Assembly: GCA_018656065.1 (NCBI GenBank)
Contig: JABHZY010000010.1
Coordinates: forward strand, 4,638 to 68,637
From: Candidatus Komeilibacteria bacterium
Lineage (GTDB): Bacteria > Patescibacteriota > Patescibacteriia > UBA1558 > GWA2-36-10
DNA length: 64,000 bases
Direction of reading: 5' to 3'
Part shown: piece by piece, positions 45,250 to 45,843 of the stretch
Position numbering within the stretch: the stretch's first letter is position 1
How the letters are laid out: every line of letters begins with the position of its first letter
Position numbers and translations under genes: made by a program
The notes under the pieces: model-generated
What the model was told of the DNA's origin: nothing
Seen by the model: only the letters and a program-made list of their open reading frames with translations
Database searches by the model: none

Positions 45250-45283
45250 AGAAAAAACCGGGAGCCTATGGTGGGACTCCCGG
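45250..45283 (-). terminator. intrinsic terminator of islet D
   Basis: CCGGGAG (45258-45264) pairs with CTCCCGG (45277-45283); a U-run follows on the minus strand. Confidence 0.8.
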
Positions 45284-45319
45284 TCACGCATCATGCTCAC
45301 GTAGGAGCACGATTACGAT

Positions 45320-45739
45320 CTAGCACTGCATGATGGTGCTGTGGGTGATGTGGGTGGCGGCGCCGAAGGTGGTGCCGTTGTCCGAGTAGCCGCCCGTCGT
45401 CGTCAGGGCACCGGTGTTCTTGGGGAACGAATAATTGTAATCCATGCCAGTGGCCATCGGCCCGTTGGGATGAACCCCGACGTTGAAGTTGCCCTTCTGA
45501 GCCGACCAGCGGTTGGTAGTGACGAGATGTTCGGGGATGGCGTCCACGATGCCGCCGGCCGTATCGATGTAGTTGGCCGAGTTCATCTGGACGACGCCGC
45601 CCGTGGCGTCCGTGTCGATCGTGGTCGTCGCGGAGATGGTCGTTGCAGTATAACAAAAATAGTCGGTGGCACCGATAGGCGGCGGTGCGAAAAGCACCCC
45701 GATCATCAGGACTGCCACCAAAGCAACGAAGCGTCTCAT
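45320..45739 (-). CDS. islet D: 139-aa secreted Thr/Gly-rich protein with strongly foreign (GC3-rich) codon usage
   Basis: SD GAGGAGG 6 nt before the ATG. Signal peptide MRRFVALVAVLMIGVLFAPPPIGA. Codons such as ACG GGC GGC GTC GTC CAG ATG AAC TCG GCC AAC TAC ATC. Ends ...STIMQC. No family recognised. Confidence 0.7.
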   Translation of the reverse strand: MRRFVALVAVLMIGVLFAPPPIGATDYFCYTATTISATTTIDTDATGGVVQMNSANYIDTAGGIVDAIPEHLVTTNRWSAQKGNFNVGVHPNGPMATGMDYNYSFPKNTGALTTTGGYSDNGTTFGAATHITHSTIMQC

Positions 45740-45814
45740 GGACGTACCTCCTCAGTTAAAGATAGGCTACAAAAGCCCACATACACCGGCATCGCTTCTC
45801 GAGCCGGATAGAGT

Positions 45815-45843
45815 ACTATAACACATATAATATATTTTGTCAA
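45815..45843 (-). promoter_or_regulatory. consensus promoter of islet D
   Basis: Minus strand: TTGACA (45838-45843), 17 nt, TATAGT (45815-45820). About 75-nt leader with hairpin CCGGC...GCCGG. Confidence 0.6.

What the first reader, a model, noticed from the sequence alone, without database searches (positions are those of the whole stretch)
45250..45843. Islet D: a secreted 139-aa protein with the most extreme foreign composition in the window
This is the most G+C-rich stretch in the window, clearly above half G+C by eye. It generates three overlapping long ORFs. Only the 45320..45739 frame has a GAGGAGG SD, a classic signal peptide (MRRFVALVAVLMIGVLFAPPPIGA) and strong GC3 bias. The mature protein is Thr/Gly/Asn-rich, has an N-proximal Cys (DYFCY), and its last residue is Cys (IMQC). 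It is driven by TTGACA-17-TATAGT through a leader of about 75 nt containing a hairpin, and it is closed by a strong terminator. A secreted protein with high-GC-organism codon usage inside a putative episymbiont genome is a candidate host-derived or host-targeting factor.
Basis: partly seen in the sequence, partly recalled or inferred. Interest (0 to 1): 0.65.

Follow-up and report, generated by a model that had tools for sequence, protein, structure and literature searches.

The report
Orphan secreted protein, persistently GC-rich gene
A small, fast-evolving, probably secreted protein of unknown fold sits in its own strongly promoted mini-gene in an AT-rich Komeilibacteria (CPR) genome; a sister species carries the same GC-rich unit at the same site, so it is not a fresh import from a host.

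Summary
Window 45222-45831 is the most GC-rich stretch (up to 0.65, against a window mean of 0.35). The real gene is the 139-aa frame at 45320..45739 (-), with GC3 0.81 against 0.23 +/- 0.06 for long ORFs. It has a perfect extended -10 promoter, a 5' hairpin leader, a Shine-Dalgarno (SD) site, a Sec-type signal peptide, and a 3' hairpin plus terminator.

The window comes from a Candidatus Komeilibacteria MAG. The segment is identical in six independent assemblies. Searches of about 15 billion proteins found one true homologue, a 131-aa protein at 39-43% identity. It lies in a sister species at the same site, between a Pro_CA_2 gene and a UvrD-type helicase. Its promoter, leader hairpins, signal peptide, both Cys, a His/Met C-terminal motif and the terminator all match, and its GC3 is 0.89.

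Flanking genes are 80-94% identical (dS about 1-2). The protein evolves 4-13 times faster than they do. Synonymous sites are nearly randomised, yet both copies stay GC-rich.

"Host-derived" is therefore unsupported. "Secreted" is well supported by sequence features. The function is unknown: no family matched and AlphaFold2 failed. All three GC3-rich ORFs in the window share the only three perfect consensus promoters.

The parts
45815..45844 (-). Promoter: -35 box within ATTGACAAAATA, 17-nt spacer ending in TG-N, then -10 TATAGT.
   Evidence: scores it 11/12 with the TG. One search finds only three perfect TTGACA-N14-TGN-TATRRT matches in 64 kb (0.19 expected), and this is one of them. The -35 and -10 boxes are the same in the orthologue.
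45740..45808 (-). 5' leader of about 69 nt, counted from the predicted transcription start.
   Evidence: Sequence. It aligns with the L089 leader. The transcription start is inferred from the position of the -10 box and was not measured.
45786..45807 (-). 5'-proximal stem-loop of the leader (8 base pairs).
   Evidence: 3 of 8 pairs show compensatory double changes between the window and L089 (CG to UA twice, UA to CG once). Only two sequences are available.
45747..45753 (-). Shine-Dalgarno site GAGGAGG, 7 nt upstream of the ATG.
   Evidence: L089 has AAGGAGG at the equivalent place.
45668..45739 (-). Codons 1-24, MRRFVALVAVLMIGVLFAPPPIGA: predicted Sec-type signal peptide, cleaved after IGA.
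   Evidence: MRRFVA is identical in the orthologue, the hydrophobic core is conserved, and the -3/-1 residues are I-G-A here and A-G-A there.
45323..45667 (-). Mature protein: 115 aa, 12.1 kDa, pI 4.85. Composition is Thr 19%, Gly 11%, Lys 1.7%, Glu 0.9%. Cys29 and the terminal Cys139 are conserved, as are NVGVHP and the C-terminal G-A-A-[TS]-H-x-x-H-x-T-I-M-x-C.
   Evidence: Indels relative to the orthologue are 3, 6 and 27 nt.
45320..45322 (-). Stop codon TAG.
45291..45312 (-). First 3' hairpin, downstream of the stop codon.
   Evidence: It is present in both species, with one compensatory pair.
45246..45285 (-). Intrinsic terminator: stem 45285..45256, followed by a T-run.
   Evidence: Two compensatory pairs separate it from the L089 terminator.
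45238..45259 (.). Terminator tail repeat, one of three copies of (T)nG/C-Y-CAAAAT. These mark the ends of the three stacked promoter-to-terminator modules.
   Evidence: families D1 and D2 (44710, 45238, 45861). The same junction lies upstream of the helicase in L009, L010 and L089.

Best explanation
**What it is.** Islet D is a genuine monocistronic gene of a Candidatus Komeilibacteria population.

**How it is probably expressed.**
- A near-perfect sigma-70-type promoter with an extended -10 drives it. This class otherwise appears, with one mismatch, only in front of secE-nusG-rplKA.
- The mRNA is about 560 nt. It starts with a stem-loop and ends with two hairpins and a T-run.
- This layout is typical of abundant, stable messages (inference).

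**What the protein probably does in the cell.**
- The 139-aa product is exported through Sec and cleaved after Ala24 (inference from sequence rules).
- That would release an acidic 12-kDa protein that is rich in Thr, Gly and Asn and poor in Lys and Glu.
- It is probably all-beta (weak evidence).
- Its first and last structured residues are Cys29 and the C-terminal Cys139, which most likely form an end-to-end disulfide (inference).
- Three invariant His and two invariant Met, clustered with the C-terminal Cys, may form a metal or ligand site (speculative).

**How it evolves.**
- It belongs to a two-member family restricted to this clade.
- It occupies a variable hotspot between a Pro_CA_2 gene and a UvrD-type helicase.
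- Its protein sequence changes 4-13 times faster than its neighbours'.

**Committed reading.** It is an abundant extracellular or surface protein at the cell-environment or cell-host interface, under relaxed or diversifying selection.

**Composition.** Its GC-rich codon usage is a maintained, gene-specific state rather than a trace of recent transfer. The cause is unresolved. Candidates are GC-biased gene conversion at a recombining cassette, selection on the mRNA, or repeated exchange with an unsampled GC-rich pool.
For: **It is a coding gene**
- GC3 is 0.81, against 0.49 and 0.51 at positions 1 and 2.
- The orthologue has the same start (MRRFVA) and the same end (TIMxC-stop).
- Indels between the two copies are 3, 6 and 27 nt.
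- An SD site is present in both copies.

**It is real DNA**
- Six assemblies are 99.7-100% identical across the region.
- There are no differences inside the ORF.

**The transcription unit is conserved**
- The -35 and -10 boxes match between species.
- The leader and 3' hairpins are conserved, with compensatory changes.

**The promoter class is exceptional**
- There are three perfect matches in 64 kb, against 0.19 expected. All three sit in front of the three GC3-rich ORFs.
- The one-mismatch copy drives secE-nusG-rplKA.
- Across about 0.75 Mb of related loci, the four promoters with the largest downstream GC excess are these three plus the orthologue's.

**Export is likely**
- The signal-peptide features are conserved.
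- There is no lipobox.

**It evolves fast**
- Amino-acid identity is 42.5% and dN is 0.51.
- Flanking genes are 80-94% identical with dN 0.04-0.14.

**The composition is maintained**
- GC4 is 0.78 and 0.81 in the two copies. Fourfold-site identity is only 0.50, against about 0.44 expected from composition alone.
- Flanking genes have GC4 0.11-0.27 and dS about 1-2.

**The site is a hotspot**
- L009, L010 and L011 have nothing there.
- Eight relatives carry a GC-richer Pro_CA_2 paralogue there.
- L089 carries a CA1/CA2 chimera followed by the 131-aa gene.
Against: - There is no direct evidence of transcription, translation, cleavage, a disulfide or secretion.
- No signal-peptide predictor could be run.
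- AlphaFold2 gave no confident fold (pLDDT 42 and 33.5). Beta-rich structure is only a hint, and the protein could be partly disordered.
- dN/dS is about 0.66, with dS saturated. This does not prove purifying selection over the whole protein.
- With two sequences, conservation of the Cys, His and Met residues is weak statistics.
- No neighbour gene gives a functional clue.
- High expression is inferred only from consensus matches.
- Fast evolution fits a neutral orphan as well as an interface protein.
Confidence: 0.5

Rival explanations
1. Recent horizontal acquisition from a high-GC donor, for example the episymbiont's host. On this view the composition is an un-ameliorated foreign signature.
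For: - Codon usage mirrors the genome's. Third positions are C 54%, G 27%, T 15%, A 4%, against flanking genes at A 36% and T 44%.
- The gene is absent from the equivalent site in the close relatives L009, L010 and L011.
- The distribution is patchy on a helicase neighbour-joining tree.
- The site holds other GC-richer inserts.
Against: - No donor or homologue exists outside two Komeilibacteria species among about 15 billion proteins.
- The sister species has the same promoter-to-terminator unit at the same site.
- That copy has diverged to 43% amino-acid identity and near-random synonymous sites, yet keeps the same GC3. A single old transfer should have ameliorated by now.
- Two recent independent transfers would have had to land in the same place, behind the same AT-rich native-type promoter.
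- There are no integrase, tRNA or flanking direct repeats of an integrative element.
- The highest-GC Komeilibacteria relatives sampled reach only GC3 0.64.
Confidence: 0.15
2. An evolutionarily young or decaying orphan. On this view the ORF is transcribed and perhaps translated, but it has no important function, and fast evolution is simply neutrality.
For: - dN/dS is about 0.66.
- The family has only two members.
- AlphaFold2 finds no fold.
- The gene has been lost or was never present in several close relatives.
- GC-rich DNA keeps ORFs open by chance.
Against: - The ORF is intact in both species despite near-saturated divergence.
- All indels are in frame.
- The start, signal peptide, both Cys, NVGVHP and the 14-residue C-terminal motif are conserved.
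- The promoter, SD site and hairpins are conserved, with compensatory changes.
- Strong 3-base periodicity is not expected of a recently non-coding sequence.
Confidence: 0.15
3. A Sec-exported small metal-binding protein, for example for copper or zinc. Its site would be built from His90, His130, His133, Met99/Met137 and the C-terminal Cys. This is a more specific version of the best explanation.
For: - All of these residues are invariant between copies that are only 43% identical.
- They cluster in NVGVHP and H-x2-H-x3-M-x-C.
- His and Met are enriched about twofold over the genome background.
Against: - Nothing matched in Pfam, NCBIfam or PDB sequences, including the cupredoxin, CopC, CusF and PCuAC families.
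- The ligand order does not fit the type-1 copper pattern (upstream His, then C-x(n)-H-x(m)-M; from general knowledge).
- There is no fold model.
- No metal-homeostasis genes lie nearby.
Confidence: 0.12
4. It is not a protein gene. On this view the islet encodes a GC-rich structured RNA, like most GC islands in AT-rich genomes, and the ORF is incidental.
For: - A neighbouring GC-rich unit (46105 to 45877) does look like a non-coding RNA.
- The transcript has structured 5' and 3' ends.
Against: - There is codon periodicity (GC3 0.81 and 0.89).
- Indels are in frame, the start and stop are conserved, and an SD site is present.
- The CDS folds no better than shuffled sequence (z = -1.5 and -0.25).
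- There are no Rfam hits.
Confidence: 0.04
5. An assembly chimera, or a contaminating read pile from a high-GC organism.
For: The composition changes abruptly at both ends.
Against: - The same junctions appear in six contigs from six assemblies.
- The orthologous arrangement appears in three contigs of a second species.
- The boundaries coincide with a promoter and a terminator.
Confidence: 0.01

Closest known systems
Lineage-specific (ORFan) genes in flexible genomic islets or hypervariable hotspots between conserved core genes
   Same: - It sits at a site that varies among close relatives: empty, a Pro_CA_2 paralogue, or this gene.
- Its composition is atypical.
- Its distribution is patchy.
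- It has no homologues elsewhere.
   Different: - Accessory islets are usually more AT-rich than the core genome. This one is far more GC-rich.
- It keeps that state in two species despite saturated synonymous divergence.
- It shows no mobility genes or att-like repeats.
Small Sec-exported proteins stapled by a disulfide to a C-terminal cysteine, for example pediocin-like class IIa bacteriocins whose last residue is Cys (from general knowledge)
   Same: - It is a small secreted product.
- It has a conserved Cys near the N-terminus paired with a Cys as the very last residue.
- The C-terminal segment is rich in Gly, Thr and His.
   Different: - It is 115 aa and acidic (pI 4.85), not about 40 aa and cationic.
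- It has no YGNGV box, no double-glycine leader, and no adjacent immunity or ABC-transporter gene.
- It has no sequence match.
- It is not a member of that family.
mRNAs stabilised by a 5'-terminal stem-loop and 3' hairpins, for example the E. coli ompA and B. subtilis aprE leaders (from general knowledge)
   Same: - A hairpin starts within a few nucleotides of the predicted 5' end and is conserved with compensatory changes.
- The 3' end carries a double hairpin.
- The promoter is strong.
   Different: - There is no sequence relationship.
- The stabilising effect has not been measured here.
GC-biased gene conversion tracts at recombination hotspots, proposed for bacteria by Lassalle et al. 2015 (cited from memory)
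   Same: - GC3 is locally elevated, favouring both C and G endings.
- Amino-acid change is accelerated.
- The neighbourhood shows signs of recombination: a CA1/CA2 chimera, the mosaic L090, and conserved module ends around variable bodies.
   Different: - The size of the shift (GC3 0.23 to 0.8-0.9 over about 0.5 kb) is far larger than reported genome-wide effects.
- The direction of substitutions could not be determined with only two sequences.

Membership tests
Sec-type (signal peptidase I) signal peptide | A positively charged n-region, a hydrophobic h-region of about 7-15 residues, and a c-region with small uncharged residues at -3 and -1. | tested here: met
   The sequence is MRR / FVALVAVLMIGVLFA / PPPIGA|T. 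The Kyte-Doolittle 11-residue maximum is 3.15, against at most 1.16 in the rest of the protein. The orthologue has ...PPAGA|N.
Sec-type (signal peptidase I) signal peptide | Called by a trained predictor (SignalP or DeepTMHMM), or cleavage shown experimentally. | not testable with these tools
   No such predictor or data are available here.
Bacterial lipoprotein (signal peptidase II) | A lipobox [LVI][ASTVI][GAS]C at the end of the signal peptide. | tested here: not met
   The residues before Cys29 are D-Y-F in the window and S-D-F in the orthologue.
Tat signal peptide | A twin-arginine motif S/T-R-R-x-F-L-K after a longer n-region. | tested here: not met
   Only M-R-R-F-V-A is present. The n-region is 3 residues long, and F-L-K is not in register.
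Any curated protein family (Pfam-A, NCBIfam, PHROGs, PDB sequences) | A profile match at or near the family threshold. | tested here: not met
   There were no hits at E <= 10 in Pfam or NCBIfam. PHROGs gave E = 1.9 and PDB gave E = 1.8, and both are spurious.
Diversity-generating retroelement (DGR) target protein | A template repeat nearly identical to a variable region in the gene, differing at adenines, together with population-level variability. | tested here: not met
   No second copy of any part of the islet exists in the 64 kb. The ORF is identical in six assemblies. A reverse transcriptase was not searched for.
Recently acquired genomic island | Atypical composition relative to the genome. 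| tested here: met
   GC is 0.60 against 0.35. GC3 is 0.81 against 0.23 +/- 0.06.
Recently acquired genomic island | An identifiable donor lineage or homologues outside the recipient clade, plus integration hallmarks (integrase, tRNA, direct repeats). | tested here: not met
   The only homologue is in a sister Komeilibacteria species. The window has no tRNA. There are no flanking att-like repeats beyond the shared terminator tails.
Recently acquired genomic island | Little divergence between copies, or amelioration under way in older copies. | tested here: not met
   The copies are 43% identical, with fourfold-site identity 0.50, yet GC4 is 0.78 and 0.81 in both.
Cupredoxin / type-1 copper site | A cupredoxin fold with an upstream His and a C-terminal C-x(n)-H-x(m)-M loop. 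| tested here: not met
   The motif here is H-x2-H-x3-M-x-C(end), so the order differs. There is no Pfam or PDB match. The fold could not be modelled.
Class IIa (pediocin-like) bacteriocin | A YGNGV box, a double-glycine or Sec leader, a cationic peptide of about 37-48 aa, and an adjacent immunity gene. | tested here: not met
   None of these is present. The mature protein is 115 aa with pI 4.85.

The most novel reading that the evidence does not exclude
This AT-rich CPR lineage may keep a small set of orphan mini-genes in a separate compositional regime.

- The set comprises the 139-aa gene and the 89-aa and 106-aa genes at 53786 and 54320.
- Each is a promoter-to-terminator cassette behind the same perfect consensus promoter (ATTGACAAAATA...TGNTATRRT).
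- Their codon usage mirrors the genome's, and for the 139-aa gene it persists through speciation while the protein changes rapidly.

If the cause is active, this would be an unusually sharp natural case of gene-specific GC maintenance in a bacterium. Possible active causes are GC-biased gene conversion at recombining cassettes, or selection for GC-rich messages (mRNA survival, or codon usage matched to a high-GC partner cell).
Probability: 0.25. Interest if true: 0.7.

Novelty: new variant of a known kind. Interest (0 to 1): 0.45.

Why it matters
- CPR bacteria are thought to live attached to other cells. Their abundant, fast-evolving secreted proteins are prime candidates for the contact interface, and almost none has been characterised.
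- This gene gives a concrete, compact target: a 12-kDa protein with two Cys and a clear expression unit.
- It is also a clean natural test case for a general question: why do some genes hold a base composition opposite to their genome's mutational bias?
- The two diverged orthologues and the shared consensus promoter make the competing explanations testable. These are biased gene conversion, selection on the mRNA, and repeated import.

Tried and rejected
- **Homology searches.** Pfam, NCBIfam, PHROGs and PDB-sequence searches found nothing.
- **Word-indexed protein searches.** A search with the single sequence and one with the two-sequence profile returned only the two family members.
- **Full HMMER scan.** It added P0002. 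It also returned P0003, a 1065-aa tandem-repeat translation with no aligned stretch, which I rejected as a false positive.
- **Collection scans.** The viral contig scan found nothing. The metagenome scan found only L089, the same species as L007 and L008.
- **Paralogue search.** A relaxed hmmsearch of all ORFs of at least 50 aa in 89 loci plus the window found no paralogue.
- **Structure prediction.** AlphaFold2 failed twice: full-length single sequence (pLDDT 41.9) and mature domain with the orthologue (pLDDT 33.5). No fold search was run, because it would have been meaningless.
- **Internal repeats.** None beyond the shuffled expectation.
- **DGR or template repeat.** None in the window.
- **Population hypervariability.** None.
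- **Specific RNA structure in the CDS.** No better than shuffles.
- **Rfam.** No hit at gathering or permissive thresholds.
- **Remnant of the GC-rich Pro_CA_2 paralogue in the window's islet.** None.
- **High-GC Komeilibacteria as donors.** Their GC3 reaches only 0.64.
- **Literature.** Two searches, on Komeilibacteria and on GC-rich or secreted CPR genes, returned nothing relevant.

Full report
**1.

- Window 45222-45831 holds the highest 150-nt GC value in the window, 0.647. The mean is 0.351, and the next peak is 0.607 at 53726-54167.
- Three long ORFs overlap there.
- The 139-aa ORF at 45320..45739 (-) has GC1/2/3 of 0.49/0.51/0.81. The other two ORFs carry the GC peak at codon position 1.
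- Long ORFs in this window have GC3 0.226 +/- 0.058, so the 139-aa ORF lies about ten standard deviations away.
- Its third positions are C 54%, G 27%, T 15%, A 4%. Flanking genes have A 36% and T 44%.
- That depletion of A and T explains why the shifted and antisense frames stay open by accident.
- The promoter is TTGACA-17-TATAGT with a TG, at 45843..45815. GAGGAGG lies 7 nt before the ATG. The terminator is at 45285..45256.
- The leader is about 69 nt, counted from the predicted start.

**2. Source and reality of the segment**

- The protein is identical to a hypothetical protein of a Candidatus Komeilibacteria MAG.
- It occurs on nine contigs. The six fetched, from six assemblies, are 99.7-100% identical to the window across the gene and both junctions.
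- No differences fall inside the ORF.
- It is not a chimera.

**3. Homologues**

- Pfam, NCBIfam, PHROGs and PDB sequences gave nothing.
- The word-indexed search found only the protein itself.
- A full HMMER scan of 1.84 billion representatives added one true relative, P0002: 131 aa, 39-43% identical over the full length.
- That scan also returned one repetitive false positive, P0003.
- A profile search, a metagenome scan and a viral scan added only further contigs of the P0002 species.
- No paralogue exists in the window or in 89 related loci.

**4. The orthologue sits at the same site and is built the same way**

- In L007, L008 and L089 the 131-aa gene lies between the Pro_CA_2 gene and the UvrD-type helicase, as in the window.
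- The units align end to end:
  - the -35 (TTGACAA) and -10 (TGTTATAGT) boxes are identical;
  - the 5' hairpin has 3 of 8 compensatory pairs;
  - the SD site, MRRFVA, the hydrophobic core and PP-x-GA are shared;
  - the Cys in D-[YF]-C-[YF], YIDT, NVGVHP and G-A-A-[TS]-H-x-x-H-x-T-I-M-x-C-stop are shared;
  - a 3' hairpin and a terminator follow, with three compensatory pairs between them.
- Indels within the CDS are 3, 6 and 27 nt.
- The orthologue is even more GC-rich: GC 0.64 and GC3 0.89, in a background of 0.36-0.40.

**5. Rates**

- Between the two species, flanking genes (ATP synthase subunits, the helicase and others) are 80-94% identical in protein. Their dN is 0.04-0.14, dS about 1-2, and GC4 0.11-0.27.
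- The islet gene is 42.5% identical, with dN 0.51 and GC4 0.78 and 0.81.
- Its fourfold-site identity is 0.50. About 0.44 is expected from third-position composition alone (my calculation).
- The two copies are therefore nearly randomised at synonymous sites, yet both hold the same extreme composition.
- A rough two-state relaxation model, using the flanks' fourfold identity (about 0.58 against about 0.34 random), puts an unconstrained gene at GC4 of about 0.6-0.7 or less by now, even starting from 1.0. This is inference, not a fitted model.
- Either something keeps this gene GC-rich inside Komeilibacteria, or both species drew diverged alleles recently from an unsampled GC-rich pool into the same slot.
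- The highest-GC relatives sampled reach only GC3 0.64.
- The CDS does not fold better than shuffled sequence (z = -1.5 and -0.25). A specific RNA structure is not the reason.

**6. Locus history**

- In L009, L010 and L011 the Pro_CA_2 gene abuts the helicase.
- In L012-L014, L016, L017, L021, L025 and L078 a GC-richer paralogue of Pro_CA_2 lies there.
- In L089 the Pro_CA_2 gene is a chimera whose 3' third is of the GC-rich paralogue type. The 131-aa gene follows it.
- A helicase neighbour-joining tree places islet-less L009 next to the window and L021 next to L089. The distribution is therefore patchy. This is a single gene with no support values.
- In the window, three promoter-to-terminator modules are stacked at this site:
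  - a 190-nt RNA-like unit;
  - the 139-aa gene;
  - a unit ending in a 55-aa ORF.
- Each module ends with a similar terminator tail, which equals the junction in front of the helicase in relatives.
- No integrase, tRNA or att-like repeats were seen.

**7. Promoter class**

- A perfect TTGACA-N14-TGN-TATRRT occurs three times in 64 kb, against 0.19 expected.
- All three copies drive the three GC3-rich ORFs: the 139-aa gene, the 89-aa ORF (GC3 0.83) and the 106-aa ORF (GC3 0.65). All three share ATTGACAAAATA.
- The only one-mismatch copy drives secE-nusG-rplKA.
- Across the related loci, the same rule picks out the orthologue.
- These GC-rich orphans are therefore predicted to be among the most strongly transcribed units. 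This is inference from consensus matches only.

**8. The protein**

- The predicted mature form is 115 aa, 12.1 kDa, with pI 4.85. It is Thr 19% and Gly 11%, with Lys, Glu, Arg and Leu each below 2%.
- There is no lipobox and no convincing Tat motif.
- There are no internal repeats and no DGR-type repeat.
- AlphaFold2 failed, with pLDDT 41.9 and 33.5. Both models were strand-rich, which is weak evidence.
- Invariant residues are Cys29, Cys139, His90, His130, His133, Met99 and Met137. They suggest an end-to-end disulfide and possibly a metal or ligand site (inference).

**9. Verdict**

- This is a real, self-contained gene for a probably secreted, fast-evolving orphan protein.
- It lies in a variable hotspot of a Komeilibacteria genome.
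- The 'host-derived' reading is not supported, because the GC-rich state is old and shared with a sister species.
- The function remains unknown. The best guess is an abundant extracellular or surface interface protein.
- The most interesting aspect is the unexplained persistence of mirror-image codon usage, coupled to the strongest promoter class.

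Noticed in passing
window 45877-46105 (- strand): This is a stand-alone unit. It has a promoter (TTGACA-17-TAATAT with TG), about 190 nt of GC-rich RNA closed by a perfect 12-bp helix (MFE -71.7 kcal/mol, z = -4.3), and a terminator. It has no SD-preceded ORF and no Rfam match, and it is absent from the sister species. It is a candidate novel small RNA.
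   Followed up: partly
window 53640-54705 (+ strand): Two tandem promoter-to-terminator units encode GC3-rich orphan paralogues of 89 aa (GC3 0.83) and 106 aa (GC3 0.65). Their promoters and terminators are nearly identical, but their bodies have diverged. They lie opposite to the neighbouring genes. A mosaic variant of the 89-aa gene (98.6% identical for 293 nt, then unrelated) occurs on another contig (L090).
   Followed up: partly
window 45815-45843, 53653-53681, 54229-54257; 31711-31739: The only three perfect extended -10 consensus promoters in 64 kb all precede the GC3-rich ORFs and share ATTGACAAAATA. The single one-mismatch copy drives secE-nusG-rplK-rplA.
   Followed up: yes
window 44700-45240 (- strand): This is the third module at the hotspot. 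It has a promoter at 45236..45208, a leader of about 270 nt with three terminator-like hairpins (45160-45145, 45110-45093, 44983-44966), and then an acidic 55-aa ORF (44769..44936) with a strong SD site. The ORF is absent from the sister species. It could be an attenuator-controlled small protein.
   Followed up: no
window 44710-44731, 45238-45259, 45861-45882: Three copies of a terminator-tail motif (T-run followed by G/C-Y-CAAAAT) mark the ends of the three stacked modules. The motif equals the junction upstream of the helicase in relatives that lack the inserts. This suggests that modules are added or exchanged at that junction.
   Followed up: partly
window 29322-29670 (+ strand): This is another GC-rich unit, antisense to its neighbours, between the leucyl aminopeptidase gene and rplA. 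It has a promoter-like TTGACA-17-TAAAAT and ends at a bidirectional terminator. It has no convincing Rfam hit, and whether its 109-aa ORF is coding is unclear.
   Followed up: partly
window 40612-41036 and 41017-41325 (- strand): Two moderately GC-rich orphan ORFs of 85 and 102 aa lie downstream of a DciA-like gene. They appear to be paralogous. The sister species has one 123-aa relative at the same place (L089 9085-9456).
   Followed up: no
L089 4269-4823; L012, L013, L014, L016, L017, L021, L025, L078 upstream of the helicase: Relatives carry a second, GC-richer paralogue of the Pro_CA_2 gene at this hotspot. In L089 the resident gene is a chimera: the AT-rich 5' two-thirds is joined to a GC-rich 3' third at the conserved FSS-EEE motif.
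   Followed up: partly
whole window: There are no tRNA genes and no Rfam family at gathering threshold in 64 kb. GC skew is negative on the + strand almost throughout, which fits nearly all genes lying on the - strand.
   Followed up: no
window 35746-35924: Independent assemblies of the same population differ in copy number of an 89-bp tandem repeat.
   Followed up: no
window 8926-19473 (- strand): A 3515-aa ORF has a signal peptide and many Cys-rich repeats, typical of giant CPR surface proteins. It is followed by a Pro/Ala-rich 309-aa ORF that accounts for the GC-rich patch at 8502-8885.
   Followed up: no
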